A DNA stretch of 64,000 nucleotides from Trypanosoma brucei (Eukaryota). Where the stretch lies: the NCBI GenBank assembly GCA_000002445.1, contig CH464491.1:256001-320000 (forward strand). Direction: 5' to 3'. The notes beneath the pieces are model-generated. The model made no database searches. It was given only the letters and a program-made list of their open reading frames with translations, and had not been told where the DNA came from. Shown piece by piece: positions 14,876 through 64,000 of the stretch (position 1 is its first letter; each line of letters starts with the position of its first letter). A program made the position numbers and the translations under genes.

Positions 14876-14876
<1 letters not shown>

Positions 14877-14904: not shown

Positions 14905-14907
<3 letters not shown>

Positions 14908-16586: not shown

Positions 16587-16620
16587 TTTTGTGTTTGTGA
16601 TCACTCCCAGCGGCAAAGGG

Positions 16621-16636
16621 TGTGTGTGTGTGTGTG
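16621..16636. repeat. (TG)8 microsatellite
   Basis: tgtgtgtgtgtgtgtg, read directly from the sequence. Confidence 0.9.
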
Positions 16637-21135: not shown

Positions 21136-21177
21136 TGGATGTGAATAACCGCAGCAACACCTATCAGGGGGTGGAGT

Positions 21178-23179: not shown

Positions 23180-26100
23180 GTGCGAGTCACCATAAACATG
23201 GCGTGTCAAGAGGTAAATAGTGAAGTTCCTGACAGCGATGTAGTTTTCCATGACACCATTTTTATGAGAAACAACAAACACGTCTCGGAGCAATGGATTC
23301 GTATTGGCGAATTGTACCCCAATGGTGCGAAGGAATCATTGCTCCCGGAGACGTTTGCACGCGAACAGTTCGGACAAGGAAGTCACTATGAGTGCTTCAT
23401 GCTTTCTGCCCTCGCCACTTTAGTAAAATTCCCCGACATCATTCGGAACTGCTTCGTGTCGAGGAATGTGCGGCGTGACGGGAGGTACACTTTTCAGTTC
23501 TTTCGTGACAAGGAATGGGTGAAGGTTGAAATTGATGACTCTGTTATGCTTGAGGATGATGAAGTTTTGTTCATCCGATCACCCACTAGTCATTGGTGGC
23601 CGCTACTGTTTGAGAAGGCTTATGCGAAATTCTACACCAGCTACGACAATTTGGAGGGTTGTACCTTACAGGAGGCGTACCATGACTTAACTGGCAACCC
23701 CGTGCTCAACATCCCCATGGACGCGAGGCTTGCCAAGGCTGCAGGTGTGGATGTGACTGGAGGTCAGTATTGGCTTGACCTCGCACAGAAGCTGCAATCC
23801 GGCCAGTTTGTTGGTTCGCTGCTGACGAGGGAAACGGACCTTGAGTCGATGGGTTTGCAGAGTGAGCAACAATACGGGATACTAGAGATTTTTTCGCTAA
23901 CTGGGACATCATCTGTAAGCGACATTGTGATTCACCTATACAACCCATTCGAGGACGAGGAATTCACGTACAAAGGCCCGCTGAACAGTAAGGACACGGA
24001 GTGGACCCCCAAACTCCGTGAAAAGTATAACGTGGATGATACGCACTCCATATTTCTTCCGCTACACGTTGCCCTGAAGATCGTAAATTCGGTGCAACTT
24101 TGCTACATATCCCCTATTGATGGTGACGCGACGTATTTTGATGATGAGTGGAAGGGTGAAACTGCGGGAGGGAACCCCACGAGTGTAACATGGCGCAAGA
24201 ACCCCCTATACTGCGTCAGGAACGCTGGGATCAACCCCGTGGAACTGGTTGTCGTGATTAAGCAGAAGGATCAACGTCATCTTTGGACATCAGAAGATGA
24301 TGAACTGATGTACAAAAGGTGTGGCATTGTTGTTGTTCAGAGTACCACAGTCACACAAATACCGACATATTTTGTAACAGGGAACAATCACAAAGCAATA
24401 CACAAGAGTTTGTTCCTAAACTCTCGTGAAGTGTCCAGTTTCGTTCGGATACCACCTAATTCCTTGTGCTACCTTGTACCTTCTTGCATGAAGAAGGGAG
24501 CGGAGAGTGCATTTACGCTCGCACTGTACCGGATGAAGCACCAAAATTATACGGAGTTCAATGTTAGTCGACTTGCTCTGCCGAAATTGCTGTGGCACAA
24601 TCCTATCCAAGAGAAACTCCAACTTCAAATGTTCACAAAGGATAGAAGGGATTTTTACGTCGATATACCCACTGACATTCACATTTTGATGCATCAAGAA
24701 AAACCGTTTGTAAGTGAGAAGACCGGTGGTGATGCTATGGTTCAGGATTACGTTGGTGTCTACCTTTATGATGACACGGACCGTAAGATTGGAGGTGTGC
24801 ACGCTGCGACGAATTTCAGGGAAACAAGTGTCTTGCATCGCCTTCCTCGTAGTGGTCGTTATGCTATTTCAATTACGTGTCCCCGGGCAAGTGGTGAAGT
24901 ACCCATTGCTCTCACAATTGTTGGTTCTCCTGATGCTAATGTTCGTATTGTTGAGGCTCCTGATGATGCCTCCATGTTTGATGATGAGGATGATATTGCA
25001 GAGGGTGATGAGGATGCTACTGTTTCTAATCCCATTGACTACATTCCTGTTGCTGGTGGAGGGCAGGTGTTCACTGAGGTACCCGATAGTACGGTCCCAT
25101 TTGAAGATAAACGTTTCATGGTTGATAATAAGATTATGACGAATGAACCGTGGATCCACATTGGTGACCTTTATCCTGAGGGAAAGACGCGCTCACTTTT
25201 GCCGGAGCGTCTGAGTCGTGAGCAGTTTGAGCAGGGTGAACACTTCGAGTGCTGTTGTCTGACCGCTTTTGCAGCGCTGGTGGAGCACCACCCCAACGTA
25301 ATTCGTGACGCGTTTGTGACGAAGGCTGTACGACGTGACGGACGGTACACGTTCCGGTTCCACCGCTACGGTCAGTGGGTGAAGGTGGAGATTGATGATC
25401 GTATTCCCCTTCTTGGTGGGAAAACTTTATTCTGTCGATCATCTGATGGTTATTGGTGGCCACTACTACTAGAGAAGGCGTATGCTAAGTTCTACACACT
25501 ATACCAAAATATTGAGGGATGTACGCTGCGGGAACTGTTTTACGACCTAACAGGGCTTCCTGTGCTTAGCATTCCGATGGAGTTGAAACTCGCGAAGGCT
25601 GTACTGTGTGATGTTGATGATGTGAGTTTTTGGGTTGAGCTCAGTGAGGGTCTGAAGGATTGTGCGTGTGCTGCCGTTGCACGCCCCGGTTTCGATGACA
25701 CCCTTGGTTTGTCCAATGGGCAAGAGTACGCTGTCCTTGATGTGGTATCGTTAACGGATGGTGAGGCCTCTTCCATATCTGATCTTGTTGTAAAACTTCA
25801 TAATCCGTTTCTGGAGACTGAGTACAAAGGCCCTATGAATGCAAGCGATGCTGCGTGGTCGTCTGAGCTGCGTACCCGTCTATGTCCGGAGCGACGGGAT
25901 ACTATCTACATTCCCGTGGAAGTTTTCTGCAATGCATTTCTCACTGTGGAGAAAGTTATGGTGCGTGGTCTTATTGTTCCCGGGTGGCAATTCAACAGTG
26001 AATGGGGTGAGGGCACGAACGGTGGCAATCCAACACTTGTGACGTGGCGTGAGAACCCCATTTACGTTGTGCAGAACACTGCGGATACCCCGTTACAGAT

Positions 26101-29100
26101 TATTGCAATGATTGGGCAACCTGATCAGCGTCGCGTGCTACACCTTCTCCCCGAGCAAGAGGTAAACTACGTTCAATGTGGGTTGTCGCTTGCCAAGAGT
26201 ATTAAGGGTGAATCGATCCCGACATACTTGCTGACACCCAATAGTCATGTTTTGATTCATAAGGGCCGTTTCTTTTCTTACCGTGAAGTAGCTGATGTTA
26301 TTGTTGTTCCGGGGAATAGCCTCACTTTTCTCGTTCCAAGCGCGATGTTTCGTGACAAAACGAAGTTTCTTCTCTCGTACTGGTACTCTAGTGCGAACGA
26401 CAGGAACAGTGTTACAATTGAGCGTCTTAATTTGGGTGTTGCGCGGCATCTTCCAGCCATTGCCCATCTCACTGTCAAAGAGAGGGTGAGGGAGCAAGTG
26501 GATTTTATTGTCGATGTTCCCACTGACGTTCATATCCTTCTTCGTCAAGAAAAACCCTGCCACGGTGACAGTGTTTCAAATGCCTTGACAGATGATTTTC
26601 TTGCCATGTATTTGTATAATTCTGAAGATGATCAACTCAGTGGTGTTGTGACCGCGACCAACTACAGGGAGATGGGAATAGTTCATCACCTCTCCGAAGG
26701 GGGGAGATATGTAATTTACGTTGTTTGCCCTCGTGCTGAGGGTGAGGTTCCTTTGAGAATAGAAATTGTCGCTATGCAGTCGGCCCAGGTTCGCACAGTG
26801 GAAGCATTACCCTTGTGCAAATCAATCTTGCAGGTGGAAAAAGAGCTAAAGCTGAGTACTGGGTCCTTGCCATACTCACCACTCCTTATAAGCGAAGGGG
26901 ATCTCAAAAATTTCTCGGGGCGACTATCGGACAACTCTATGCGGTTGGAGAGTTCCAGTGACCCTGACTTATCTTTCCTTGGAGCCGAGGTGGAAGGAAT
27001 TCCCACCCTGGATCTCACTCTGATGAGCGACTCTTCATTTTCTGAGATGGCACGTGAGCGCATGCAATTAAAGCGGGATCCCATTGCTAATGCGAGTCGT
27101 TTGGCTGAGGTTGAAGATAGTATGGTGGCACGTGCGAATGCTATTGCCAAGGAAATGCATTTGAGAGAGCGGCGATATCTGAACCCTGAGCCTGAGGGTG
27201 TCCCCCTTGAGTTGCTTCCTTTAAACGAGGACGAAGTTGTGAGTGAGAAGGAGGACCGCCTCCGTGCGCTGAATCGTAAGGAGCAGAAGGACGAGAAACT
27301 GTTACGGAGTCTTGAGGACGTGATAGCGGACCGTGTACACGAGATCGCGAGGGAGCTGAAGGTGAGTGAACGTGATCTGTTCCTTGATCCCACTCCAGGA
27401 GGTTTCCCTGTAGCGCAGCTTCCGCTGGACGAAGACGATGTGTTTCATTCACTCGAAGTGGAGCGACTGCAACTGCGACTGCGTCAGGATTCCCTTGCTA
27501 GCAAAGAAAGAATTGCTGAACTGGAAAACATGATGAATTGTAGGACTACGGAGCTCATCGACAAAATGAAAGAAGAGATTAGGAAGTTTCTTGACCCCAC
27601 CCCACTAGGAATACCACTTGAAGAACTAAAACTGGACGAACACGACAATTATGTTGCAAAAGAGATAAGCCTAATTGGAATGATAAGAAAAGGGAAAAAA
27701 GAATCACAGGAAGCAATTTCAATTCGGGAACAGTTACTTCAAATAGAATACGCTGTTGCCAAGGAACACTTAAACAACTTTAGGATACAGTACCTCGGAG
27801 ACGACATTGAGGGTCGCCAACCGAACGAATTAAACTTAGAAGAAGAAGAAACTTATATGCAGATGGAGAGAAAATTGATTGAATACTACAACAGTAATCA
27901 ACGTAACAGCGAAGAAGCGCAGAAAATAAGAGTAAATCTACTTCACAAAGCTACAAAAGCATCAAAGCATTTAAATCGATCCGAGAGAAAAAACTACATT
28001 AAGAGAGACAGACTCGAGATTTCAATATCAAACATTCCGCTTGATGACAACGAACAGTTCACAACATTAGAAGCGGAACGAATAAGAAAAAAAAGAAATA
28101 AAAAAAATTCAGAGGTTGAACAAATAGAAATGGAACTCAACAATATAGCACAACAGCTAGCTAAACTGAAAGCATCCGATAGCCGCAGCTTCCTTGATCC
28201 TATGCCAGAAGGAGTGCCGTTGAGTGAGCTTGAATTGGACAAGGATGAGAAGTTCAGCACCATGGAAGAGGAGCGTCGTAAGCTTATTGCTGAGGATCGT
28301 GAAGATAATGCAACACGCATTGCTGAATTAGAAGCAGCAATGAACGAGTATTCACATGAGCTTGCTAAACTGAAAGCATCCGATAGCCGCAGCTTCCTTG
28401 ATCCTATGCCAGAAGGAGTGCCGTTGAGTGAGCTTGAATTGGATAAGGATGAGAAGTTCAGCACCATGGAAGAGGAGCGTCGTAAGCTTATTGCTGAGGA
28501 TCGTGAAGGTAATGCTGCGCGCATTGCTGAATTAGAAGCAGCAATGAACGAGCATTCACATGAGCTTGCTAAACTGAAAGCATCCGATAGCCGCAGCTTC
28601 CTTGATCCTATGCCAGAAGGAGTGCCGTTGAGTGAGCTTGAATTGGATAAGGATGAGAAGTTCAGCACCATGGAAGAGGAGCGTCGTAAGCTTATTGCTG
28701 AGGATCGTGAAGATAATGCAACACGCATTGCTGAATTAGAAGCAGCAATGAACGAGTATTCACATGAGCTTGCTAAACTGAAAGCATCCGATAGCCGCAG
28801 CTTCCTTGATCCTATGCCAGAAGGAGTGCCGTTGAGTGAGCTTGAATTGGATAAGGATGAGAAGTTCAGCACCATGGAAGAGGAGCGTCGTAAGCTTATT
28901 GCTGAGGATCGTGAAGGTAATGCTGCACGCATTGCTGAACTAGAAGCTGCAATGAACGAGCATTCACATGAGCTTGCTAAACTGAAAGCATCCGATAGCC
29001 GCAGCTTCCTTGATCCTATGCCAGAAGGAGTGCCGTTGAGTGAGCTAGGATTGGATAAGGATGAGAAGTTCAGCACCATGGAAGAGGAGCGTCGTAAGCT

Positions 29101-45399: not shown

Positions 45400-46030
45400 G
45401 CTTTAGGGATTGACGCCTTTTTTTTTGGCGACTGTCTTGCGCCGTACTCCGTTTACTTGTTCACAAAGTGTGGTCTAACTCTTCGCCATTGTTTCTTATC
45501 TTATTTATGCGTAGATGAGTTAACTGTTCCGTTAGTTTTTTCTGACCTCTCGTGTTTGCTACAGTTTTGACGAGTGGTTGATTGTTTTTTTTTAATTTTA
45601 TCTTTCCATTTTTTTCCCTTTTGGAAACTGTTTTCGTGTTCCTTGTTTTCTGTTCATGTGATGCCATGTTTTTTTTTCTATTCGTCGCATAGGGGGTGTG
45701 CTGACGCATGGTATAAAAATATGCTCATCTGCGTGGTGTTACGTTTTCCCCTTTTTCACACGTCGCGTTGTTATTATCGTTTTGTGGTTTGTACCCTTTG
45801 TCGTGGGAGCATATTAAAGAATTGAAGAGGTTATGAAACAGCTTAAAAACATAATAACAAAGAGCGGTTCAAGTGCGGGTTGCATCAAAGAGGAAGGGGC
45901 AAGGGGAAGATCCCTTAACAAAAATACAAAGGAGGGAATACACACGAAATGACACATTATTTCCATGTAAGCGATGTTTCGATAAATTTTATTCTACAGA
46001 CTAATTTTTTCTTCTTTTTTTATTTCTCTC
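45400..46030 (+). promoter_or_regulatory. Pyrimidine-rich block in the 2.5-kb spacer between the two giant paralogs. Candidate processing signals for gene 2.
   Basis: Several T/C-rich runs (for example gacgcctttttttttggcgactgtcttgcg, ttttttttaattttatctttccatttttttcccttttgg, ttttttcttctttttttatttctctctctttgag). A purine/A-rich leader follows up to the ATG at 47463. Confidence 0.4.
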
Positions 46031-47462
46031 TCTTTGAGGGCTGTGCCTGTTTGCGTCACATCTCGTGGTGCATGGGGGAGCAGGCATTTGTTATTACTTG
46101 AAAGAGTGAAAGGAGGAGGGAAGAAAAATTTGGTCTGAAGATCAGTTGGGATGGATAGTGGTTATGTGTGAGGAAAGAAAAAGAATGAGTATTATCTTCC
46201 CTTGATTACCTTGTCCAAACACTTTAGTTTGTTAAAGCTGCTGTTTCGCATGTAAAAAAAAAGAAGTAAATGAAAGAATATTGAAGCGGTGTGTGTGTGT
46301 ATATGGCTGCCCTAAAATGGAGGAAGTGCTGGCGGGCCGAAGGTTTATGTATCGCTCTGTAGATAGTTGTGTGACGCTGAGTAGCGTTCCAAAAAAAATG
46401 ATATGATGGAGGAGGCAGCATGGGATTACTCCTGTGGAATGTTACGTTACACAAGGAGCGGTTAGAGGGGGATATACGCACACACATATGCATGCTTTCG
46501 TTCGGTAGCAGCTGCAGTAGGAAAAGTGAATAGAAGAGATAATGTCAAATAGATAAACAGCGAAATAAACGCTGGGAAAATTTTTTGTTGGGGAGTGGTA
46601 TAGAAGGTGGAGCGTGGAGTAATAAGTGGGGAGAAGAAGAAGGGGAGGGAGAGAAAAAGAAGGCGACCCCGCGCCTAGACTGTGAAGTAGCGAAGAAGAA
46701 AAAGAAAACTACGTTGGGCTTCTGACAGCTGACGCACATGGATAAAAGTGAAACATTCGTTGTTACAAAGACCTTATAACGTTGGCCAAAAGGGGGGAAG
46801 GAGCACTTAGAACTAGTAGGTCCCATACATTTCACATTTGTGCTGATCTCGGATCAGTACAGCAATGGGCCGCTCTTTTAACCATTTGGTTTTTTTTACT
46901 TTTCGCAACAGTGACGATCAATTCGAAAGAGCAACAAGTAAAACTGTTTTCCAACGTCCACTGGAGGTGATGTTTGTTGAGAGAAAGTACATTGAGATAA
47001 AGAGGTTTCCTAGTGCTATACTGTTCTCTTTTTCTTTCCTTTACCTGTGTAATTGCAACTTCCCTTGTAACAGACAAACGACGAAGAAATTGACAAAGAA
47101 AAACGACTTTGAACGCACAAAAAAAGTGTTTCATCATCAAAAACAAAACTCGAGGTAGAAACAGCATTTAAACCACAACAAAAAAACACAAATAGGGACA
47201 CAGAAGGCAATAAACCGCGATATTATAACGACATTGTAACGTAAAGTCTTTCATCCGAGGAAAAGCGAGGGTAAATCGTTCCTCATCAGGAGGCTCATTG
47301 TTGCAACAAGATTTGCGAAGAACTATCAGTCTACATATATTTATCAAAAAAGCAGTAAAAAAAACAAAATATAAAAAGAACAGAAACACTAGCGCCGTTA
47401 TCTACAGGAAAAGAGTGTTTTTTTTTCTTGCATAGTTACCGAAGAACAATACTGACAGAATT

Positions 47463-56400: not shown

Positions 56401-59400
56401 CGGACACTGTGTTTCATGGTCTGGAAGTGCAGCGTGCGGTGCTCAAGGCGCAAAATGCACGTCGGAACGCAGCGAAGATTTCTGATTTTGAGATGCGTTT
56501 AAATGAACGTGCTGTGCAACTGGCAGAAGTGCAACGGCAGCGGGAGCTGGAGGGGCTTGATCCCGAACCTGAGGGTATTCCTATATCTGTGCTTAATCCT
56601 CACGGAGATGTGGAATTTATTAAGCTTGTAACTGAGTTGCGTCAATTGTGTAGTGAGGGCAATAATGAGGGCATGTGTGATGTGCTGAAGACCACGATGA
56701 ACGACGTTGTGCATGCTCTGGCGAAGCGATTGAAGGAGGGAGATCGTGGCTACCTCGACCCTGAGCCCGAGGGTGTTCCGCTGTGTGTGCTGCCGTTGGA
56801 CACTGATGTGTTGTTTTTTAGGCTAGAGTGTGAACGTGTGACTCTGAAGGCACGTAATGCGCACTTAAACGCGAGGAGAATATGTGAGTTGGAGGACGCA
56901 CTCAATAACCGTGCAGTGGAACTTGCTCGCGAGCAACTGCGGCAGGACGTTAATGGTGTGGACGAGGCGCCGTGCGGTATTCCTCTGCAGCTGCTACGAC
57001 TTCACGAGGACAGTACCTTTCTTGTGATGGTGGATGATATTCGCACCCTAAGGAAGAATCCGGATGCTAACAGCGAGGCGATTGACGCCGTTGTCATGTC
57101 CATGAATGATCGCGCCTATGACGTTGCGATAGCTCAATTTGACCGTGGTTTCCTTGATCCTGAACCCGAGGGCGTTCCATTATGTATTTTGCCACTGGAT
57201 GACGATGAGTTGTTCCATGGTATGGAGGTGGAGCGGATTAAACTGAAGCTTACTGATGCGCGTCGCAATGCGCAGACGATTGGCACACTGGAGGAAGAAA
57301 TGAATGGCCGCGCACACGAACTCGCATTGCAGCAGTTGCGTGAGGAGCTTTCCGGTATTGATGCGGCACCTGAAGGCATTCCCTTGTCATTGTTGAGGGT
57401 GATGGAAGACCCTGCCTTTGCACTGATGGTGCTGGAGTTGCGTGACCTCAAGAAGGGCACCCAGGGTAATGCGGAACGGATTCGGGAGGTGGAGGACGCT
57501 ATGAACAACCGCGCTTACGAACTCGCGGATGGGCTGCTGGAGGGTGATCGCAGCTATCTAGACCCTATTCCCCTCGGCGTACCCGTCTCGGAACTTCCCT
57601 TGTGTTCCGACGAACCGTTTGCCACTATGGAGGTTGAACGAGCGAGGTTGAAGGCCGAAGACGCACGACGGAATGCAGCAGGGATTGGAGAACTTGAGTT
57701 GAAACTTAACAACCGCGCGAAGGAACTTGCGTCTGAACAACTATTACGTGATTTGGAAGGATTCCACGACGAGTATGAAGGGATTGACCTTGCGCACCTG
57801 AGGCCACACGACGACAAAGAATTTGTCTCCCTTGTACCGGAATTACGGAGGTTGAAAAGAGATGGTGACAAGGAAGCTGTTGAGCAACATATGCGCAGCA
57901 TGGATAGGCGCTTACGTGAGCTTGCGAAAGAGCTTGTTGGTGGTGATCTTTGGTTTCTTGACAAGGAACCGGAGGGTGTTCCCTTGACGTACTTACCTTT
58001 GGATGGGGACGAGATTCTCGACAAATTGCGCCATGAACGAGCTCAACTAAAGATACAAGATCCGCGGGGGAATGCTGACAGAATTGCGGAACTTGAGAGG
58101 AAAATGAATGAACGTATTCATGATCTAGCGAGGTGTATAGGAGATGAGGATTTTGATGGTGTTGAGGGAGAGCCTTGTGGCATTCCGTTGAGTTTACTCT
58201 CTCCTAGAGATGATGAGGTTGTTGCAAAACTTATCAATGACATTCGTAAAGTGAAATATTCTACAGGGGAGAAAAGCTCGAATGGTGCGCTGAATAACTT
58301 GCAGGTTGAACTTAGCAAACGTGTACACCAACTAGCAGAGGATGTTTTAATAAGAGACAGGGTGAAGTACCTAAACCAGTGCCCAGAAAGTGTTGATATA
58401 TCTTTTCTTCCCCTTAGTACTGACGAACAGTTTCGTGCCTTGGAGTTGGAGCGGGTCATTATTAATATCCAATCGAACGGTGACGACAAACGTTTGGACG
58501 GCTTAGAAGATATGCTTAACAAGAGAGCGCATGAGCTTGCAAAGGAACAGCTGCAGGAGGACCTAAGAGGACTGGAACAGGCTCCCCATGGTGTTCCACT
58601 TGACGTTCTTAAACCCCACAGCGACTTACGATTCATTAAAGAGGCGGAACAGCTACGGAACTTAAAAAGAGACCCGCTTCGTAATAAGAGGGAGATAGAT
58701 GACCTTGTGGAGCAAATGAATAATACTGTTGGTGAACTTGCCCTGAACTTACTACGTAGCGATCGTGACTACTTGCATTTGGCTCCTGAGGGAGTACCGA
58801 TTGAAGAGCTTCCACTGGAGGTCGATGCAAAGTTTTGTGCTTTGGAGGCGGAGCGTGCAATGTTAAAAGGCGAGAACAACCCGAAGAATGCGAGTATGAT
58901 ATTATCTTTGGAAGAGAAATTAAATGAGCGTGCTCGCCAGCTGGCTCAAGAGCAACTACTGGAAGACCTGAAGGAATTGAGTTCTTTTCAGCATTGTGTT
59001 CCTCTCTCACTTTTATCGCCTCATACTGACGTTCAGTTTGCTGCTGATGTTGCTGAATTTCGACGACTGAAAAAAGAAGGGGAGCAAAACACCCCTGCCA
59101 TTCAGGGCGTTGTCGGGAGACTTAACGCACGTGCGAATGAGCTCGCGGAAGAGTATTTGCGTACCGATCGCGCATCGTATCTTAACCCTGAACAACTTGG
59201 TGTGCCACTTGACTTGCTATCTTTGGACACAGACTCTGAGTTCGTGTCACTGGAAGCTGAGAGGCTAAAATTGTTGTCCTATCCGGCGGTTAACAATGAG
59301 CAAATAACTCGTTTGGAAGCTGAGTTGAATGCATGTGCCAAAAAATTGCTTGTTAAAAGATTGTATAAAGAAAGGAATTATCTGGATAGGGATCCACTTG

Positions 59401-62400
59401 GCGTGTCTCTGAATGCTTTACCTCTTGATACGGATTCGCAGTTTCATTTCATGGAGCTGAAGCGGTTGGCTTTGAAGGCAGGAGATCCCTGTTGTAATGA
59501 AGTCGCAATCAATACTTTGGAGGAGAGATTGAGTGACCGTGCATACGAGTTAGCAAGGGGGCAAATTGCGGAAGACTTGAGTGATCTGATAAGTGCTCCC
59601 AGGGGTATCCCGGTGAGTCTCCTTCATCCCCATAATGATCCAGAGTTTCATGAGATGGTTGTTAGTGTTCGACTGTTAAAGAGGGATTCTCAACCTGATC
59701 TATCGAAACTTATGAGGCTGGTCGATGACCTGAACAGGAGGGTAAAGGAGCTTGCAGACTGTGCTGTAGGTACATGCCGGAGAAAACTCAACCCACTCCC
59801 GGATGGTATACCCCTGCAGTCGCTTCCCCTAGATGAAGATCCATTATTCAGTCAGATGGAGCGTGATCTCGTTTCATTGTTCCTTGAAGATGAGAAAAAG
59901 AATGCCACTCGGATAACTAAGCTGGAGGACCGCCTCAATGAACGTGCGGCGAACATTGCTGTCTCTGTAAAGGCGAAGGATTTGGAGCAGTTGGAACAGA
60001 CGCCTTGCGGCATACCTATTGAGCTTTTAAGGCCCCATGAGGATTCAACTTTCGCCTCACTGGCAAATCAATATCGCATTTCCAAGCACCTGGGGGGGAG
60101 TGATTCACACGGCGTGAATGTTGGAACCCTGAACAAAAGGGCTACGGAAATAGCCATAGAGCTTCTGAGGGGCGATCAGAGTTACATTGATCGTCAACCT
60201 TGTGGGGTTCCTTTTTCCGCTTTGGAATTGGAGAAGGATCCCCAATTCCGCGACTTGCAAGTTCAGCGGATGAGGATGGTACTTTCAAATCCGAAACGCA
60301 ATCTCAACAGAATAACTGAACTTGAGGTACAACTTAACTCGTACGTTCAGAGGTGTGCGCAGGCGTTCTTGGCTGCTGATCGTGGATTTGTTGACAAAGA
60401 ACCTGGGGGTGTACCGCTCGCGGAGCTAGACCTTGACAATGATCCTCTCTTTCATCGAATGGAGGTAGAACGAGCAAAGTTGAAAATAAGAGAGCCAGTC
60501 ATCAACGCCTATCGGATACGTAATCTGGAGGAAAAATTGAACGATCGCGCTCATGAGTTGGCAGAGGAATTGTTGGCCACTGACCTTGAGGGAATTGCGC
60601 CCGAACCCGAGGGAGTTTTGTTGGCTTCCTTGCACCCGCACGACGATGCCGAATGTGCCTCCCTCATCGCCGCAAAACGGCGGTTGCTAAAGGAACCGTC
60701 CCAAAACATGGAAAAGATTAGGGACGTTCAGGAAAAGTTGAACAACCGCGTGTTTCAGTTGGCAAGGGAGGTAATTTCCAAGCTCCGTAAACAGTTGGTT
60801 CAAGAGCCGGAGGGGATTCCGCTGGAATTCTTACCGCTTGACGCAGATAATACATTTCGCAGCATGGAGAGAGATCTCCTTGCCTTGCAAGCTACTCCTC
60901 GACGTAATGATATTAAAGTGGAGACCTTGAGGGGGAGTCTGAACGAACGCGCGTGCGAGTTAGCAAGGGGTCAAATACAATGTGGCCGTGGATTCCTTAA
61001 CCCACAACCGGAGGGTGTTGATCTCGAGCACCTTCCCCTTGATGAAAATGTGGTGTTTCGAAGCAAGGAGGTAGAAAGGACCAAACTCAAAAGGTGCCCT
61101 CACGAAAATGCAGCCGCTATTACGCAGCTAGAAAGTGATCTGAATGCCCTCGTACACAGCATCGCAAAAGACATAAAATTATCAGACCGTGCATTTCTGA
61201 ACCTAACGTCACACGGTATCCCGAGGGAATTGCTACCACTTGATGAGGATCGGAGCTTCACGACGATGGAACGTCGGCGAAGGAGACTGAAACGTGACGG
61301 CAACCGTAGGGCCACTGCAATGATGAATCTGGAGGAAATGATGCAGGATCGTGTAGATGACTTGGCTTTTCGCATTTTGCGAGGGGATCGGGGTAACTAT
61401 GTCACTCTTCCTGATGGGATTGACGCAGCAGACATTCCTATAGATACTGATGAACGTTTCGGAACCTTGGAGTTGAGGCGCGCAGTCGTAATGTTACAGG
61501 GTTCGGATGATTGCAAGGAACAAGTGGGGAAGTTGGAGCACCAGATGAGCGAGCGACTACAAGAATTAGTCAGGAAGCGGGTAAAAGAAGACAGAGATTT
61601 CCTTGATCCGGAACCTGAGGGCATTCCATTGAAGGATATTCCACTTGACTCCGATGCCGAGTTTAGGCATCTTGAGGCGCGAAGAAGAAAAATCCGTCGC
61701 GAATCGCGTCGTCGAGTAACTAATGTCGCCGATCTGGAGGAGGCTATGAATGATCGCGCACATGTACTTGCAAGGTGTATCGTCGCTGAAGATGTCGGGC
61801 ACCTTCGGCCTGATTACCGAAGGATTCCAACCAACGAGCTGCATCTTCATAACGATGACACGTTTAGGTCACTCGCTAGCAAACGTCGGGAGCTGCTACA
61901 GGTGGGCGCAGTCACCGTTGATATTGCTGCCATCGAAGACGATATGGACATCCGGGCGCTGCAGGTTGCTGATGATGTAGTAGCGGAGGAACGGGCCTTT
62001 TTAGACCCACAACCCGGGGGCATGTTTATTGTTGACTTGCAGCTCGATGAAGATGAAACATTCTTTGCACTTGAGCGTGAGCGGCGGAGGATGAGAAAGG
62101 ATTTCCGTTTCGCTAAGCGGAACAAGGAGGCCATTAACGACCTTGAAGTCAGTCTTAATGAACGTGCTTGTGAATTGGCAAGGGAGGCGTTTTCAAAACA
62201 ACGCGATTTCATGGATCAGGAGCCCGAAGGTATTCCTCTAAAGGAGCTGCCTCTTGATAATGACTTGATTTTTAAAGATGCTGAAATTTCTCGATACGTG
62301 TTGTTGAAGGATCCAAAACATGCAGCGAATGAATTAATTGCCTTCGAAAACGTCATGAATTGTCGGGCGCATGAGCTAGCGAAGGAGATCATTGCAAAAG

Positions 62401-64000
62401 ATCGTGACTTCCTTGACCTTGAACCTGATGGCGTCCCTCGAGAAGAGTTGCCGCTTGATACAGATGAGAGGTTTCAGGTATTGGCACAAGAACATTTTCG
62501 ATTAAAAAGGCTGAATGGAAATCTGAAGTCCACTGAGGTAAGAGTTTTAGAGGAAAAAATGAATGAACGTCTGCACGAACTTGCCAAAGAATTCCTTCAA
62601 GAAAATCGTTCATTTCTTGATTCAGAACCAGAAGGCGTTCCGATAGCCGATGTTCCCTTTAGATGTGACCCTACTTTCGTCGAAATTGAACGAGAGTTAC
62701 TAAAGTTGAGCAGGAATCCGGTGGTGCCCGATAGCGCGAAGCAAATCGTTCGTGATCTTCTAAACAAGAGGTTGCATGAGATCGCTGCGGCTTTTTTGAA
62801 GAAAGAACGAATATTCCTCGACCCTGAACCCTTTGGTCTTCCATTGGCGTGTTTACCACTTAATTATGACCACATCTTGAATTTACTTGAACGAAAGCGG
62901 CGTGCTCTCAAAAAGAACGGGAGGGGAGAGATCAAAACAATTCGCTCCCTGGAGGAAGAGATCCAAGATCGTGTTAACGTTATTGCAGTGGAGTACTTGG
63001 AGATGGAACGGAGTTTTCTTGACCCCCGACCCCGGGGAGTGCCTTTGACCTTACTTCCTCTCAATGGTGATTGGCGTTTTCGTAGCATGGAGGTTGAGCT
63101 ACGGGCACTACGGAAGAACCAAACGAAAAACCGAAAGGATATTGAAAAAATAGAGGGAGACCTTAATCTTAGGGCGACGGAACTGGCAGGAGCCTTTCTA
63201 CAAAAACATCGTGTTTTTATCGATCCTGAGCCCCTTGGTGTGCCCATTGAAGAATTACCTCTTGACTCCGATTCCATCTTTCACAATATGGAGAGTATGT
63301 ATCTTCAAATGGGACGAGATATCCCGAGAGCAGCAGAACTTCGAAGAATGGAAGAGGAAATGAATGACCGAGTACGTGAACTCGCTACCGAGCATCTTCA
63401 GGGAGAACGCGCTTTTTTGAACCAAAAACCTCAAGGTATACCACTGTGTGACCTATCGCTTAACAACGATAGGCCGTTTCGTGACATGGAAAAGCGACTC
63501 CGTGCCCTTCGCAAGCACCCTCGTAGCAACACCGAAGGTATCAAAACTATTCAAGACGAAATGAACCAACGAGTAAATGCATTGGCTCGTCGCAAAATAT
63601 CTGATGATCGAAGCTATCTTCCGCTTGAGCTTCATGGCGTTCCCGTATATGACATTCCACTTGATGATGATAGGGAGTTCAGGGACCTTGAGATCAAACG
63701 GCACAGAGACAAAAACCTATCACCCGAGGACGCTGTGTTAGTTCAACGGGTTGAAGAAGAACTGGTCAGCCGCGCTCTGGATATCGCAAAAGATTTTGTG
63801 TCGAGAGAGCGCTCTTTTCTAGACTCTAACCCACAAGGAGTTCCAATAATCCGTCTTCCGTTGAGTACCGATGAGCAGTTCCGAGAATTAGAGACGAGGC
63901 GCCGCCACCTCAAAAAAGATCCGAGGAATGCGGGCATAGTCGCACTGCTAGAGCAGCAGCTCAGAGCGCGAGCACACGAGCTAGCAGAGGGACTATTAGG
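47463..64000 (+). CDS. Second giant calpain-like repeat protein, tandem paralog of the ClpGM6-type gene. N-terminal calpain-like domains followed by at least about 60 highly diverged 67-68-aa repeats. 3' end beyond the window.
   Basis: ATG at 47463 (MNYQAITEIPDSNTIFHDTIFMRNNKHVSEQWIRIGELYPNG...). Frame checked by hand at several points (for example 55920 QEKLKDDREFLDQCPEGVPL; 60420 AELDLDNDPLFHRMEVERAK; final codons ...LRARAHELAEGLL). The 6-frame track shows no long + ORF here only because no stop codon occurs before position 64000. The minus strand across the interval shows only short antisense ORFs. N-terminal 3 kb is nearly identical to gene 1. Confidence 0.8.
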   Translation, partial: MNYQAITEIPDSNTIFHDTIFMRNNKHVSEQWIRIGELYPNGAKESLLPETFAREQFGQGSHYECFMLSALATLVKFPDIIRNCFVSRNVRRDGRYTFQFFRDKEWVKVEIDDSVMLEDDEVLFIRSPTSHWWPLLFEKAYAKFYTSYDNLEGCTLQEAYHDLTGNPVLNIPMDARLAKAAGVDVTGGQYWLDLAQKLQSGQFVGSLLTRETDLESMGLQSEQQYGILEIFSLTGTSSVSDIVIHLYNPFEDEEFTYKGPLNSKDTEWTPKLREKYNVDDTHSIFLPLHVALKIVNSVQLCYISPIDGDATYFDDEWKGETAGGNPTSVTWRKNPLYCVRNAGINPVELVVVIKQKDQRRYMSSEERTMYLQCGIVVVQSTTVTQIPTYFVTGNNHKAIHKSLFLNSREVSSFVRIPPNSLCYLVPSCMKKGAESAFTLALYRVKLQDYSNILIKKLEVPSMDWGHCAIGKVTLETKVKERVDFFVDCPTDIHILMHQEKPFVNKVGGDITTRDYVGVYLYDDTDRKIGGVHAATNFRETSVLHRLPRSGRYAISITCPRASGEVPIALTIVGSPDANVRIVEAPDDASMFDDEDDIAEGDEDATVSNPIDYIPVAGGGQVFTEVPDSTVPFEDKRFMVDNKIMTNEPWIHIGDLYPEGKTRSLLPERLSREQFEQGEHFECCCLTAFAALVEHHPNVIRDAFVTKAVRRDGRYTFRFHRYGQWVKVEIDDRIPLLGGKTLFCRSSDGYWWPLLLEKAYAKFYTLYQNIEGCTLRELFYDLTGLPVLSIPMELKLAKAVLCDVDDVSFWVELSEGLKDCACAAVARPGFDDTLGLSNGQEYAVLDVVSLTDGEASSISDLVVKLHNPFLETEYKGPMNASDAAWSSELRTRLCPERRDTIYIPVEVFCNAFLTVEKVMVRGLIVPGWQFNSEWGEGTNGGNPTLVTWRENPIYVVQNTADTPLQIIAMIGQPDQRRVLHLLPEQEVNYVQCGLVLSQCTCSNPVPTYLVTSNNHRVVHKGLFVNFRESANIVTIPANSMSYLIPSAMFRDKTKFLLSYWFQKLPDMKFIKISRINVSVARSLPAIEHLELHNHEKKRVDFLVDVPTDIHILLRQEKPCVTVRTHDAMADDFLGIYLYNEDEKRIDGVTAATNYREMGLVHRLATAGRYALSITCPRGTGVVPCRVEIVGVEDAKVRITDPPEDAGNLCEVDLRFLGSEAEGVPLEDLPLDSDADLQAILEELRRLHGDIDANAEPIAKHERMMSDRVHKMARQLLAKDRSKYLPGYDLQTVNSILDAEPHFVVLERDRYHLKGDPRNATKVRNVERSLLTLANEILEKHDDPDLSFLGAEVEGIPTLDLTLMSDSSFSEMARERMQLKRDPIANASRLAEVEDSMVARANAIAKEMHLRERRYLNPEPEGVPLELLPLNEDEVVSEKEDRLRALNRKERKDEKLLRSLEDVIADRVHEIARELKLSERDLFLDPTPGGFPVAQLPLDEDDVFHSLEVERLQLRLRQDSLANKTSEIKELESWLNRRACELARVKVEEGRAFLDPEPLGFPLTDLNLDGDSEFVKLESELRKLRWEPRVNSTAMRTVEEDIARVVYRIALRKTCLDRDYLDAEYEGRPVQGLPLNDSKEVLAMETRRRVLINAKADRDEIGVAENMIRDAVREIARALNVGERLDYLEPCPRGVPVEDLPLDMDTEFHELEVHRQRLKCDAKKQDTVIMDVERALNDRAEALAREHLSSDRGYLDPASVGVPLRLLPLDSDSVFQELEIKRALLKKNPQRNGRAISALEGGLNERAHVLATEMKHAERSKFMDPNPGGIAIEDVPIDNDEVFCDLEIRRFGLCEDPHANIAAIRNLEDAMNERVIELADKMRCEIRMFLDPMPLGVSLDELPLDNNESFVAKEAELHKLRKDLRANGADVALLKSDLNELAKQMAAEMISKDRAFLFPEPEGRLLEELPLDSDKEFRSLEKQLRLLCKESPPEAQKIAAIEELLDGRAHQLAKMKNCAERKDYLISHPCGVPLDDVPLDNDDEFSMLEVKRAALMRDVVGNKDSIASVEKALNGRAEKLALLKLRSERSFLDPEPHGIPLHCVPLDDDDNFHLLEVERLTLKGLNIRENDRKLVGVENAMRDYVNDLALEVKRKMREDVLDTSPDGLPLSVLPLDNDLPFIELENGYIKAVFDAKDTLKIQDLAGAMRRRSEDIARKLRSDVRLSLEQHPLGFTLDELPVDDSELFLGKERELLELKQDGRYNSPTAIEIMEELNSIILDIAKEQAIREREFLDQEPEGRHITELNLDSDTTFLGLERQRRLLKKDPFADRSRIVDLEQMLNDRSHELAKKLNSLDRPKFLPVAIRGVLLSELPLDSDAEFTRLEVERSSLYRDPVRNASTINHVEEALNIRVAAMADEVVRQDRMFLGEDVEGVCVRHLPLDDDAEFRALETKRATYKSCGSRMGTKAIKDLEDQLGDRAAELARTAKKELRNLLGTEPLGVPLSDLPIDVDGRFRALEDNYRDLSRNSANGGKLCEIILQLNERALELAAELHTKERVVLSQCPGGIPLSALALNEDEMFKALETEARKLRHSTAGRGRNAARISELESAMNERAMELANQLRRTYCDAAPEGIPLELLGLGGVEEFTKLEDALRDATKDPVKNREIISDIEFELNSRAHVAAMGLLEGDRDYLECETMEVPLSDLPLNTDSVFRALEVERAVLKLREPHRGARRVRELELKLVERAHRLAEELKEEDLSGLDGEPEGVSLRALKPHNDSLFSEFVGAMRKLKRGPKRNTVAIEELRERMNERAHELAQEKLKDDREFLDQCPEGVPLSDLPLGTDPLFHKLETERARLKERDAARNITHIHELESRLKERAVELANEQKGRDLSELEQSPCGVPIYILQLHDDPVLQKMLNKMRGLRNRGVTGPEFVALIDEINNCARDAAEELLLRDREYLEPEPLGVPLSLLSLTTDTVFHGLEVQRAVLKAQNARRNAAKISDFEMRLNERAVQLAEVQRQRELEGLDPEPEGIPISVLNPHGDVEFIKLVTELRQLCSEGNNEGMCDVLKTTMNDVVHALAKRLKEGDRGYLDPEPEGVPLCVLPLDTDVLFFRLECERVTLKARNAHLNARRICELEDALNNRAVELAREQLRQDVNGVDEAPCGIPLQLLRLHEDSTFLVMVDDIRTLRKNPDANSEAIDAVVMSMNDRAYDVAIAQFDRGFLDPEPEGVPLCILPLDDDELFHGMEVERIKLKLTDARRNAQTIGTLEEEMNGRAHELALQQLREELSGIDAAPEGIPLSLLRVMEDPAFALMVLELRDLKKGTQGNAERIREVEDAMNNRAYELADGLLEGDRSYLDPIPLGVPVSELPLCSDEPFATMEVERARLKAEDARRNAAGIGELELKLNNRAKELASEQLLRDLEGFHDEYEGIDLAHLRPHDDKEFVSLVPELRRLKRDGDKEAVEQHMRSMDRRLRELAKELVGGDLWFLDKEPEGVPLTYLPLDGDEILDKLRHERAQLKIQDPRGNADRIAELERKMNERIHDLARCIGDEDFDGVEGEPCGIPLSLLSPRDDEVVAKLINDIRKVKYSTGEKSSNGALNNLQVELSKRVHQLAEDVLIRDRVKYLNQCPESVDISFLPLSTDEQFRALELERVIINIQSNGDDKRLDGLEDMLNKRAHELAKEQLQEDLRGLEQAPHGVPLDVLKPHSDLRFIKEAEQLRNLKRDPLRNKREIDDLVEQMNNTVGELALNLLRSDRDYLHLAPEGVPIEELPLEVDAKFCALEAERAMLKGENNPKNASMILSLEEKLNERARQLAQEQLLEDLKELSSFQHCVPLSLLSPHTDVQFAADVAEFRRLKKEGEQNTPAIQGVVGRLNARANELAEEYLRTDRASYLNPEQLGVPLDLLSLDTDSEFVSLEAERLKLLSYPAVNNEQITRLEAELNACAKKLLVKRLYKERNYLDRDPLGVSLNALPLDTDSQFHFMELKRLALKAGDPCCNEVAINTLEERLSDRAYELARGQIAEDLSDLISAPRGIPVSLLHPHNDPEFHEMVVSVRLLKRDSQPDLSKLMRLVDDLNRRVKELADCAVGTCRRKLNPLPDGIPLQSLPLDEDPLFSQMERDLVSLFLEDEKKNATRITKLEDRLNERAANIAVSVKAKDLEQLEQTPCGIPIELLRPHEDSTFASLANQYRISKHLGGSDSHGVNVGTLNKRATEIAIELLRGDQSYIDRQPCGVPFSALELEKDPQFRDLQVQRMRMVLSNPKRNLNRITELEVQLNSYVQRCAQAFLAADRGFVDKEPGGVPLAELDLDNDPLFHRMEVERAKLKIREPVINAYRIRNLEEKLNDRAHELAEELLATDLEGIAPEPEGVLLASLHPHDDAECASLIAAKRRLLKEPSQNMEKIRDVQEKLNNRVFQLAREVISKLRKQLVQEPEGIPLEFLPLDADNTFRSMERDLLALQATPRRNDIKVETLRGSLNERACELARGQIQCGRGFLNPQPEGVDLEHLPLDENVVFRSKEVERTKLKRCPHENAAAITQLESDLNALVHSIAKDIKLSDRAFLNLTSHGIPRELLPLDEDRSFTTMERRRRRLKRDGNRRATAMMNLEEMMQDRVDDLAFRILRGDRGNYVTLPDGIDAADIPIDTDERFGTLELRRAVVMLQGSDDCKEQVGKLEHQMSERLQELVRKRVKEDRDFLDPEPEGIPLKDIPLDSDAEFRHLEARRRKIRRESRRRVTNVADLEEAMNDRAHVLARCIVAEDVGHLRPDYRRIPTNELHLHNDDTFRSLASKRRELLQVGAVTVDIAAIEDDMDIRALQVADDVVAEERAFLDPQPGGMFIVDLQLDEDETFFALERERRRMRKDFRFAKRNKEAINDLEVSLNERACELAREAFSKQRDFMDQEPEGIPLKELPLDNDLIFKDAEISRYVLLKDPKHAANELIAFENVMNCRAHELAKEIIAKDRDFLDLEPDGVPREELPLDTDERFQVLAQEHFRLKRLNGNLKSTEVRVLEEKMNERLHELAKEFLQENRSFLDSEPEGVPIADVPFRCDPTFVEIERELLKLSRNPVVPDSAKQIVRDLLNKRLHEIAAAFLKKERIFLDPEPFGLPLACLPLNYDHILNLLERKRRALKKNGRGEIKTIRSLEEEIQDRVNVIAVEYLEMERSFLDPRPRGVPLTLLPLNGDWRFRSMEVELRALRKNQTKNRKDIEKIEGDLNLRATELAGAFLQKHRVFIDPEPLGVPIEELPLDSDSIFHNMESMYLQMGRDIPRAAELRRMEEEMNDRVRELATEHLQGERAFLNQKPQGIPLCDLSLNNDRPFRDMEKRLRALRKHPRSNTEGIKTIQDEMNQRVNALARRKISDDRSYLPLELHGVPVYDIPLDDDREFRDLEIKRHRDKNLSPEDAVLVQRVEEELVSRALDIAKDFVSRERSFLDSNPQGVPIIRLPLSTDEQFRELETRRRHLKKDPRNAGIVALLEQQLRARAHELAEGLL
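47511..50441 (+). repeat. Segmental duplication block B1 (copy of 23249-26185)
   Basis: See block A1. Identity starts about 16 codons into both CDSs, at HDTIFMRNNKHV. The 5' leaders and first codons differ. Confidence 0.9.
51100..64000 (+). repeat. Degenerate coding repeat array in gene 2, period about 200-205 bp. Consensus about [D/E]R.[FY]LD.[EQ]P.G[VI]PL..LPLD.D..F..LE.ER..LK.......I..LE..[ML]NERAHELA.E.L
   Basis: FLDPEPEGVPL-like motifs recur about every 200 bp (for example 52117, 52310, 52510, 52720, 52920, 53120). Each unit differs at most positions but keeps the same skeleton as the 68-aa unit of gene 1. Confidence 0.8.
51482..52021 (+). repeat. Segmental duplication block B2 (copy of 26959-27498)
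   Basis: See block A2. The sequences diverge immediately after gattcccttgc. Confidence 0.9.

What the first reader, a model, noticed from the sequence alone, without database searches (positions are those of the whole stretch)
23180..64000. Tandem pair of giant calpain-like repeat genes: one repeat family, homogenised in gene 1 and fully diverged in gene 2
Gene 1 carries about 69 copies of a 204-bp unit that are nearly identical even at synonymous sites. Gene 2, directly downstream, has the same domain order and the same 67-68-aa periodicity. Its repeats share the skeleton FLDPxPxGVPL..LPLD.D..F..LE.ER..LK ... I..LE..MNERAHELA, but every unit is different. The invariant skeleton positions in gene 2 mark the residues under functional constraint. 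The near-perfect identity in gene 1 points to recent expansion or concerted evolution by unequal crossing-over. Two contrasting evolutionary regimes side by side in one locus is unusual and informative for how these cytoskeletal (FAZ-type) repeat proteins evolve and function.
Basis: partly seen in the sequence, partly recalled or inferred. Interest (0 to 1): 0.75.

Follow-up and report, generated by a model that had tools for sequence, protein, structure and literature searches.

The report
ClpGM6 and its diverged-repeat paralogue
This is the known Trypanosoma brucei flagellum-attachment gene ClpGM6, with about 68 near-identical 68-residue repeats, followed by an uncharacterised sister gene with 64 all-different repeats of the same family; the contrast is real, but an equivalent one was already described in T. 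cruzi.

Summary
Gene 1 (23198-44914) is ClpGM6. It has three calpain-like domains and 79 DUF7623 units, 68 of them GM6 units averaging 97% nucleotide identity. A 100-N assembly gap at 40584-40683 lies inside the array, so the copy number is only a minimum. Gene 2 (47463 to beyond 64000) has the same N-terminus and 64 contiguous units of 65-70 aa. These average 31% amino-acid identity, and no exact DNA repeat exceeds 16 nt.

New here:
- Gene 2 units match fragments from T. congolense, T. conorhini, T. melophagium and T. theileri one-to-one and in order, so the array is ancient and fixed in register.
- Units 23-48 alternate between two subtypes.
- The two genes share three conversion tracts (dS 0.02-0.03) separated by patches saturated at synonymous sites.
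- A T. equiperdum assembly shows gene 2's C-terminal calpain domain and the start of a third paralogue.
- AlphaFold models each unit as an extended segment plus a helical hairpin (pLDDT 96), with no specific PDB match.

ClpGM6 is published, the repeat is in Pfam, and the conserved-versus-degenerate contrast with an unequal crossing-over explanation was described for T. cruzi H49/calpain in 2011. Verdict: real and mostly known, with modest interest.

The parts
23198..44914 (+). Gene 1 = ClpGM6 (GM6 antigen gene). The reading frame runs through an assembly gap.
   Evidence: ORF. The unit contains the exact antibody peptides KASDSRSFLDPMPE and ERRKLIAEDREGN of Hayes 2014 (one search compared).
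23258..24529 (+). Gene 1, first calpain-like domain (CysPc plus domain III). The residues at the triad positions are C-E-N, so the catalytic His is missing.
   Evidence: Pfam Peptidase_C2 at aa 21-302 and Calpain_III at aa 315-444. Alignment to m-calpain 1KFU.
25100..26800 (+). Gene 1, second calpain-like domain (approximate limits). His is replaced by Gln and Asn is kept.
   Evidence: Second Peptidase_C2 stretch. Alignment to calpain-5 6P3Q.
26975..28189 (+). Gene 1, six diverged DUF7623 units upstream of the homogeneous core. The first two and a half are near-identical to gene 2 units 3-5.
28190..42226 (+). Gene 1, GM6 core array: 68 units of 204 bp (68 aa) at about 97% nucleotide identity.
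   Evidence: TRF. Unit statistics. Longest exact direct repeat 611 nt.
40584..40683 (.). 100-N assembly gap inside the GM6 array. The downstream contig starts at a HindIII site.
   Evidence: It matches the published description of a gene split into Tb11.57.0008 and Tb11.47.0036 and Tb927.11.1090/1100.
42227..43030 (+). Gene 1, four diverged units downstream of the core.
43031..44911 (+). Gene 1, C-terminal calpain-like domain. The catalytic Cys is deleted, His is replaced by Cys, and Asn is kept.
   Evidence: Pfam. Alignment to calpain-9 1ZIV.
47463..64000 (+). Gene 2, the diverged-repeat paralogue of ClpGM6. It is cut by the window end. By inference it is Tb11.47.0035.
   Evidence: Open frame of 5512 codons. 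pN/pS 0.23 against T. equiperdum. Collinear over 17.7 kb with an independent long contig (a 3.65-Mb chromosome record).
47463..51101 (+). Gene 2, N-terminal region with two calpain-like domains.
   Evidence: Pfam Peptidase_C2 x2 and Calpain_III.
51102..63998 (+). Gene 2, 64 contiguous DUF7623 units, all different.
55542..60791 (+). Gene 2 units 23-48. Subtype A (F/YLDPEPEGVPL..LPLD.D) alternates with subtype B (GL...P.GIPL..L.PH.D), giving a super-repeat of about 135 aa.
   Evidence: Sequence listing. Identity at even lags 0.36-0.37 versus 0.30-0.31 at odd lags.
23246..24531 (+). Conversion tract 1, 98.2% identical to gene 2 at 47508-48790 (dS 0.032).
24668..26185 (+). Conversion tract 2, 98.9% identical to gene 2 at 48926-50441 (dS 0.019).
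26959..27498 (+). Conversion tract 3, 99.1% identical to gene 2 at 51482-52021 (dS 0.024). It ends inside a repeat unit.
24532..24667 (+). Island of 136 bp between tracts 1 and 2, saturated at synonymous sites (31% aa identity, pS 0.88).

Best explanation
The window carries the ClpGM6 locus of a Trypanosoma brucei-group genome. By inference it is the TREU927 reference, chromosome 11.

Both genes encode giant modular proteins. Each has two calpain-like domains at the N-terminus and one at the C-terminus. In gene 1 all three lack a complete catalytic triad, so they are pseudo-proteases. Gene 2's N-terminal domains are 98-99% identical to gene 1's; its C-terminal domain lies outside the window and its triad positions were not examined. 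Between these ends lies a long chain of DUF7623 units. Each unit is predicted to be a Pro/Gly-rich extended segment followed by an antiparallel hairpin of a 17-residue and a 26-residue helix. By inference the chain forms a long structural linker.

The two arrays evolve differently because of their DNA. In gene 1 one unit type was amplified. Units share exact matches of up to 611 nt, so unequal sister-chromatid exchange and gene conversion keep spreading variants across the array. Purifying selection acts on the peptide at the same time (pN/pS 0.14). In gene 2 no two units share more than 16 nt exactly, and nucleotide identity is at most 60%. Out-of-register recombination therefore has no substrate. 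The array is fixed in register, and each unit has evolved on its own under constraint since before the Trypanosoma species compared here diverged.

Between the genes, conversion acts only where identity is still high: the N-terminal domains and the first shared units. This gives a mosaic of tracts with dS of about 0.02-0.03 and patches saturated at synonymous sites.

Shown here: identity of gene 1, unit counts, identities, conversion tracts, cross-species collinearity, purifying selection. Inferred: the recombination-threshold mechanism, the rod or linker role of the repeats, and a cytoskeletal role for gene 2.
For: - Identity of gene 1: published antibody peptides match exactly, and the gap matches the published split gene (searches compared).
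- Domains: Pfam Peptidase_C2, Calpain_III and DUF7623. Residues at the triad positions are C-E-N, C-Q-N and deleted-C-N.
- Gene 1 array: 97% nucleotide identity, pS 0.096, pN 0.014, variants interspersed along the array and more numerous near its 3' end, diverged units at both edges.
- Variant turnover: sites 30 and 32 carry the minor variant in 20% of units in the window and in 100% of the 46 assembled T. b. gambiense units. Identity is 97.0-97.4% within arrays and 95.8% between them.
- Between species, GM6 units are only 51-55% identical although homogeneous within each species (PMC3808341).
- Gene 2 array: 64 units, 31% mean aa identity, longest exact repeat 16 nt against 611 nt in gene 1.
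- Unit-for-unit collinearity with orthologue fragments: best diagonal 0.49-0.57 identity against about 0.33 for other offsets. z is 21 and 17 for T. congolense, 8-11 for T. conorhini, 7.3 for T. melophagium, 9.7 for T. theileri and 4.5 for Strigomonas.
- Gene 2 is under purifying selection: pN/pS 0.23 overall and 0.28 in the repeats against T. equiperdum.
- Mosaic conversion: tracts dS 0.019-0.032, patches pS 0.74-0.94.
- Age of the paralogy: in patch 2, gene 2 is 70% identical to a T. cruzi fragment but only 52% identical to gene 1.
- Structure: pLDDT 96 and pTM 0.80 for three units.
- Function of ClpGM6: PMC4121973 and PMC4827413.
Against: - No experiment here or in the searched literature locates gene 2's product or tests its function.
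- In T. cruzi a degenerate-repeat H49/calpain (orthology to gene 2 not tested here) gave a broader signal than the FAZ, so a shared location is unproven.
- The gambiense array is only partly assembled (46 units next to a gap). The frequency shift could reflect a local sub-block rather than array-wide turnover.
- The recombination-threshold argument is inference from identity values and is not measured.
- The model coordinates could not be inspected, so the geometry of the chain is unknown.
- Gene 1's patch 2 is about equally distant from all Trypanosoma sequences (52-53%). Faster evolution of gene 1, rather than an older duplication, cannot be excluded.
Confidence: 0.85

Rival explanations
1. 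Gene 1's homogeneity reflects a single recent burst of amplification, with no continuing homogenisation. The array is simply young.
For: High identity (97%) and exact repeats up to 611 nt. The T. cruzi authors also argued for lineage-specific expansion.
Against: Synonymous divergence among units (pS 0.096) is about six times the divergence between T. brucei-group genomes at gene 2 (pS 0.015) and 3-5 times that of the inter-gene conversion tracts. The units are therefore not very young. Variants are interspersed rather than in nested blocks. Variant frequencies differ between the window and T. b. gambiense. GM6-type arrays that are homogeneous within species but only 51-55% identical between species exist in T. 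congolense and T. vivax.
Confidence: 0.15
2. Gene 2 is a decaying relic or pseudogene of a formerly homogeneous array, and its diversity comes from relaxed constraint.
For: Every unit is different and nucleotide identity is low. No functional study was found.
Against: The frame is uninterrupted for 5512 codons. pN/pS is 0.23-0.28. Each unit is conserved with its positional orthologue across Trypanosoma at about 50-57% identity, against 31% between paralogous units. Two peptides assigned to Tb11.47.0035, which I infer to be gene 2, were found in patient plasma proteomics. Tb927.11.1110, a calpain gene whose identity with gene 2 is my guess, is reported as stage-regulated.
Confidence: 0.03
3. 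The picture is an assembly artefact: a collapsed or consensus GM6 array, and a chimeric gene 2.
For: A 100-N gap lies in the array. A short-read T. equiperdum OVI contig is a gene 1/gene 2 chimera with N gaps. The T. b. gambiense fragment P0011 switches sequence in register inside unit 41.
Against: The array holds 48 distinct DNA variants, so it is not a consensus. Southern blots indicate at least 55 repeats. Gene 2 is collinear over 17.7 kb at 99.3% with an independent long T. equiperdum contig (3.65 Mb), with 3 gap characters in 16.5 kb of coding sequence. The order of units 9-64 is reproduced in four other species. The published RNAi fragments described as unique map onto the divergent stretches next to my conversion tracts (one search compared).
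Confidence: 0.03

Closest known systems
T. brucei ClpGM6 / GM6 antigen (Tb927.11.1090 + Tb927.11.1100; Muller 1992, Hayes 2014, PMC4121973)
   Same: Gene 1 is this gene. The published peptide sequences match exactly. It has 68-aa near-perfect repeats, calpain-like domains at both ends, no complete catalytic triad, and an assembly gap that splits the gene model.
   Different: Nothing differs for gene 1. The publication does not discuss the downstream paralogue or the conversion tracts, although its 'unique' RNAi fragments avoid them.
T. cruzi H49/calpain cluster (Galetovic 2011, PMC3214072)
   Same: Clustered calpain-like genes in the same orientation. One type has conserved 204-bp/68-aa repeats flanked by degenerate ones. 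Another has only degenerate repeats between two N-terminal CysPc domains and a C-terminal CysPc plus domain III. N-termini are more than 98% identical between paralogues. Assembly gaps lie in the repeats. The authors propose unequal crossing-over or gene conversion and call the degenerate copy a remnant of ancestral repeats.
   Different: It is a different species with a different amplified unit (less than 60% identity reported). Cross-species collinearity of the degenerate units, the A/B alternation and the dS contrast of the tracts were not reported there.
Pfam PF24610 DUF7623
   Same: All units of both genes match it. Gene 2 gives 63 stretches and 3235 bits.
   Different: The family has no assigned function or structure. 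It is noted as trypanosomatid-specific and associated with calpain domains (PMC13309793).
Classical calpains (for example human CAPN2, PDB 1KFU)
   Same: CysPc and domain III folds are detected by sequence (E between 1e-16 and 1e-18 for the N-terminal domains).
   Different: The His of the Cys-His-Asn triad is missing in all three gene 1 domains, and the Cys is deleted in the C-terminal one. No EF-hand domain was detected. The domains are most likely non-catalytic.
Concerted evolution of tandem coding repeats in general (rDNA-like homogenisation, other trypanosomatid repeat antigens)
   Same: Identity is high within an array and low between species. Diverged units lie at the array edges.
   Different: Here a frozen sister array of the same repeat family lies next to it as an internal control.

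Membership tests
ClpGM6 (GM6 antigen gene of T. brucei) | Near-identical 68-aa repeats that carry the published GM6 peptide sequences | tested here: met
   KASDSRSFLDPMPE and ERRKLIAEDREGN are present exactly in the consensus unit.
ClpGM6 (GM6 antigen gene of T. brucei) | Calpain-like domains at the N- and C-termini flanking the repeat core | tested here: met
   Pfam Peptidase_C2 x2 plus Calpain_III at the N-terminus and Peptidase_C2 at the C-terminus.
ClpGM6 (GM6 antigen gene of T. brucei) | [quoted passage not shown] | not testable with these tools
   Taken from the literature only (PMC4121973, PMC4827413).
DUF7623 repeat proteins (Pfam PF24610) | Match to the Pfam model above its gathering score | tested here: met
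   Gene 1 flanks score 227 and 226 bits. The gene 2 repeat region scores 3235 bits in 63 stretches. The cut-off is 27 bits.
Active calpain proteases (MEROPS C2) | Complete Cys-His-Asn catalytic triad | tested here: not met
   Gene 1 domain 1 has C-E-N. Domain 2 has Q at the His position and keeps Asn; the Cys is read from the QGEHFECCC motif in the sequence. The C-terminal domain has the Cys deleted, C at the His position, and Asn kept. Gene 2's N-terminal domains are 98-99% identical to gene 1's.
H49/calpain-type cluster (conserved-repeat plus degenerate-repeat paralogues) | Two or more same-strand neighbouring genes with 2 N-terminal CysPc domains, 65-68-aa repeats and a C-terminal CysPc/domain III; one array conserved and one degenerate | tested here: met
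   Gene 2's C-terminus was seen only in T. equiperdum L001.
H49/calpain-type cluster (conserved-repeat plus degenerate-repeat paralogues) | Orthology of the degenerate-repeat gene between T. brucei and T. cruzi | tested here: met
   T. cruzi fragment P0015 is 70% identical to gene 2 and 52% to gene 1 in patch 2, and shares gene 2's units 1-2, which gene 1 lacks.
H49/calpain-type cluster (conserved-repeat plus degenerate-repeat paralogues) | Orthology of the homogenised arrays (GM6 versus H49: was the same ancestral unit amplified?) | not tested
The T. conorhini fragment P0014 has gene-1-like architecture, but its domain sequence is ambiguous.

The most novel reading that the evidence does not exclude
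Gene 2 is not a degenerate remnant. It is a protein of about 6100 aa whose 64 units are non-interchangeable. Each unit has kept its own identity and position across the Trypanosoma species compared here, and possibly in Strigomonas. The central part is built from A/B unit pairs. This would imply position-specific roles along the molecule, such as distinct docking sites or a graded mechanical element in the flagellar or FAZ cytoskeleton. ClpGM6 would then be a derived homopolymer version whose length can be tuned by unequal exchange.
Probability: 0.3. Interest if true: 0.5.

Novelty: already known. Interest (0 to 1): 0.3.

Why it matters
ClpGM6 levels set FAZ length and can switch T. brucei between trypomastigote and epimastigote-like shapes, so its gene structure has practical consequences.

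- The 98-99% identical tracts shared with gene 2, and a third copy with a gene-1-like 5' end, mean that N-terminal tagging, RNAi fragments, short-read mapping and peptide assignment can hit the wrong paralogue.
- GM6 is also a diagnostic antigen. Turnover and copy-number change in the array could affect antigen dose and epitope variants.
- The locus is a clean natural comparison of homogenised and frozen arrays of one repeat family. The frozen array gives 64 independent samples of which residues the fold needs.
- None of this changes current understanding. It refines an already described situation.

Tried and rejected
- A homology search with the whole gene 2 repeat region (4313 aa) timed out. 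A 942-aa piece worked.
- A search with the second half of the T. b. gambiense fragment P0011, meant to recover gene 3 from T. brucei or T. equiperdum, returned only proteins already in hand. Gene 3 is therefore known only from its first 2 kb (L001) and, by inference, from P0011.
- The AlphaFold-database fold library was not available.
- I looked for positional homologues of gene 1's own diverged flank units in gene 2 or P0011. Outside the conversion tract there were none, with identities of 0.25-0.51 and no order.
- I tried to assign T. conorhini P0014 as the gene 1 orthologue. Its architecture agrees (it lacks gene 2 units 1-2), but the domain sequence is closer to gene 2 (58% versus 53%), so this stays open.
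- Literature searches for gene 2 identifiers (Tb11.47.0035, Tb927.11.1110, Tb927.11.1120) found only list entries and no functional study.
- The 4719-aa antisense ORF at 27994-42153 is a by-product of a repeat unit with no stop codon in one antisense frame.
Full report
**What is in the window**

All long ORFs lie on the + strand. Upstream are ordinary genes: ATG9, DnaJ, a PfkB kinase, Brix, vasohibin and an ABC half-transporter. Two giant reading frames follow. Gene 1 is open from 23153 to 44911, with its first ATG at 23198. Gene 2 is open from 47436 to the window end, with its ATG at 47463.

**Gene 1**

Pfam finds two Peptidase_C2 stretches and a Calpain_III domain at the N-terminus, a Peptidase_C2 domain at the C-terminus, and DUF7623 (PF24610) repeats between them. 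TRF reports a 204-bp period over 28155-42167.

There are 68 units that start FLDPMPEG. They comprise 48 distinct DNA versions and 23 distinct protein versions. Mean pairwise nucleotide identity is 96.9%, pS is 0.096 and pN is 0.014. A profile trained on gene 2 finds 79 units in gene 1: six diverged units before the core and five increasingly diverged ones after it. Variants are interspersed along the array and more numerous near its 3' end.

A run of 100 N at 40584-40683 lies inside the array, and the contig after it begins at a HindIII site. The copy number is therefore a lower bound, and the single ORF across the gap is a construct of the assembly.

**Identity of gene 1**

The repeat contains exactly the two peptides used to raise the anti-ClpGM6 antibody. 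The published description is a gene split into Tb11.57.0008, which ends inside a repeat, and Tb11.47.0036, which begins inside a repeat. It reports at least 55 near-identical repeats by Southern blot and calpain-like ends. This fits the window. The TrypTag paper states the same for Tb927.11.1090 and Tb927.11.1100.

[quoted passage not shown] Its depletion shortens the FAZ and produces epimastigote-like cells. Alignments to solved calpains show that none of the three CysPc-like domains keeps the catalytic His, and the C-terminal domain also lacks the Cys.

**Gene 2**

The first ~1000 residues are almost the same as in gene 1. An HMM seeded with the GM6 consensus and iterated converges on 64 back-to-back units over aa 1214-5512, spaced 65-70 aa apart, each with E between 5e-10 and 1e-30. 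Pfam counts 63 stretches.

Mean pairwise amino-acid identity is 31% and the maximum is 57%, against 7.6% for shuffled units. Codon-aligned nucleotide identity averages 43% and reaches 60% at most. The longest exact direct repeat in 12.9 kb is 16 nt, compared with 611 nt in the GM6 array.

Units 23-48 alternate between an A form (F/YLDPEPEGVPL..LPLD.D) and a B form (GL...P.GIPL..L.PH.D). Identity at even lags is 0.36-0.37 and at odd lags 0.30-0.31.

**Gene 2 is real, complete and functional**

A long T. equiperdum contig (L001, from a 3.65-Mb chromosome record) is collinear with window 46300-64000 at 99.3%. In that assembly unit 64 is the last repeat. It is followed directly by a C-terminal Peptidase_C2 plus Calpain_III domain and a stop codon, about 1.9 kb beyond the window. 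The full protein is therefore about 6130 aa, and the 'same domain order' claim holds. Substitutions between the two genomes give pS 0.0154, pN 0.0035 and a ratio of 0.23, or 0.28 within the repeats.

**Gene 2 units are individually ancient**

Fragments from other species were cut into units and compared with the 64 gene 2 units. Best matches run in order. T. congolense P0007 matches units 46 to 64 and then a calpain domain, and P0005 matches 38 to 57. T. conorhini P0003 matches 9 to 30. T. melophagium P0006 matches 30 to 38. T. theileri P0009 matches 56 to 64.

In a diagonal test the correct offset gives 0.49-0.57 mean identity, against about 0.33 for all other offsets. The z-scores range from 7 to 21. 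Strigomonas gives a weaker signal, with z = 4.5. The array has therefore kept its register and unit identities since these Trypanosoma lineages diverged.

**Relationship between the genes**

BLASTN finds three tracts of 98.2-99.1% identity: 23246-24531, 24668-26185 and 26959-27498, matching 47508-48790, 48926-50441 and 51482-52021. Their dS is 0.019-0.032. The stretches between them, and the first 16 codons, are saturated at synonymous sites, with pS 0.74-0.94. This is the pattern of an old duplication overlaid by recent gene conversion.

In the second divergent patch, gene 2 is 70% identical to a T. cruzi fragment (P0015) but only 52% identical to gene 1. P0015 also shares gene 2's units 1-2, which gene 1 lacks. 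The RNAi fragments that Hayes et al. described as unique map to window 26266-26959 and 27499-28157. These are the divergent stretches that precede and follow tract 3 (one search compared).

**Evidence for concerted evolution in gene 1**

- The array edges are diverged.
- Variants are interspersed along the array.
- Within-array identity is 97.0-97.4%, against 95.8% between the window and the 46 assembled T. b. gambiense units. Two sites go from 20% to 100%.
- Published GM6 units of T. vivax and T. congolense are homogeneous within species but only 51-55% identical to each other and to T. brucei.
- pS among units is 0.096, well above the divergence between T. brucei-group genomes (0.015). This argues against a very recent single burst.

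**Structure**

AlphaFold was run on units 31-33, using 65 three-unit windows as the alignment. It gave pLDDT 96 and pTM 0.80. Each unit is an extended segment (residues 1-19) followed by a 17-residue helix, a short loop and a 26-residue helix.

The conserved positions map as follows. D19 and N40 lie immediately before the two helices. Residues 22, 25, 29 and 32, and residues 44, 47, 51, 54/55 and 58, have a/d-type spacing within the helices. The GVPL..LPLD segment lies in the extended part. This mapping is my reading. No specific structural relative was found in the PDB.

**What is already known**

The T. cruzi H49/calpain paper describes clustered genes in the same orientation. One type has conserved 204-bp repeats flanked by degenerate repeats, and another has only degenerate repeats. 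It reports N-termini more than 98% identical, N gaps in the repeats, homogenisation by unequal crossing-over or gene conversion, and the degenerate copy as a possible ancestral remnant. DUF7623 is described as trypanosomatid-specific, calpain-associated and of unknown function. I found no functional study of gene 2.

**Verdict**

The observation and its main interpretation are correct. The locus is the known ClpGM6 gene plus an annotated paralogue, and the contrast between evolutionary regimes has a published precedent. The additions made here are incremental:
- one-to-one conservation of gene 2 units across species;
- the A/B super-repeat;
- quantified conversion tracts;
- a third paralogue;
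- a confident hairpin model of the repeat unit.

Noticed in passing
L001:22058-24161 (T. equiperdum CM010682.1), downstream of gene 2: A third calpain/DUF7623 gene starts here. Its first codons (MACQEVNSEV...) and about 30 bp upstream resemble gene 1 (97.8%). From 22136 onward it is 99.7% identical to gene 2, including gene 2's version of the 136-bp island. The 'pair' is therefore a cluster of at least three mosaic paralogues. The T. equiperdum copy has frameshifts, which may be assembly errors or decay.
   Followed up: partly
L002:10001-14586 (T. b. gambiense DAL972 FN554974.1), protein P0011: This annotated fragment equals gene 2 units 38-41. It then switches, in register inside unit 41, to 12 different units and a C-terminal calpain domain that is a mosaic of the gene 1 and gene 2 C-termini. 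It lies between two 100-N gaps, after 9.9 kb of GM6 repeats and before the RSP3 and Vps18 genes. It is probably the 3' part of gene 3, or an assembly or recombination chimera.
   Followed up: partly
L003 (T. equiperdum OVI CZPT02000675.1) 12021-21638: This short-read contig joins the 5' end of gene 1 to gene 2 sequence (window 51482-55905) through short N gaps. It is an assembly chimera caused by the 98-99% identical tracts.
   Followed up: yes
window 40565-40690: The sequence just before the gap departs from the repeat consensus (AATGAAGGAGAATT versus AATGAACGAGCATT). The contig after the gap starts at the HindIII site of the unit. This suggests clone or contig ends rather than biology. The ORF stays in frame across 100 N only by accident of where the contigs were cut.
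   Followed up: yes
window 27994-42153 (- strand): A 4719-aa antisense ORF spans the GM6 array. It exists because the 204-bp unit has no stop codon in one antisense frame, and it is not evidence of a gene.
   Followed up: yes
window 24532-24667 versus 48791-48925: A 136-bp island just after the first Calpain_III domain has 31% aa identity and pS 0.88. It sits between two 98-99% identical tracts. It may be kept different by selection, as paralogue-specific function, or it may just mark a boundary between separate conversion events. Gene 3 carries the gene 2 version.
   Followed up: partly
window 1-22815: There are nine upstream ORFs, all on the + strand: ATG9, DnaJ, a PfkB kinase, two without Pfam hits, Brix, vasohibin, an ABC half-transporter, and a 545-aa protein without Pfam hits. 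This is a single polycistronic unit, as expected in a trypanosomatid. GC skew is positive throughout.
   Followed up: partly
window 23198-23245 versus 47463-47507: The first 16 codons and the 5' flanks of genes 1 and 2 are unrelated, and conversion starts about 48 nt into the ORF. Gene 3 has the gene-1-type start, so N-terminal tagging constructs designed for ClpGM6 could also target gene 3.
   Followed up: no
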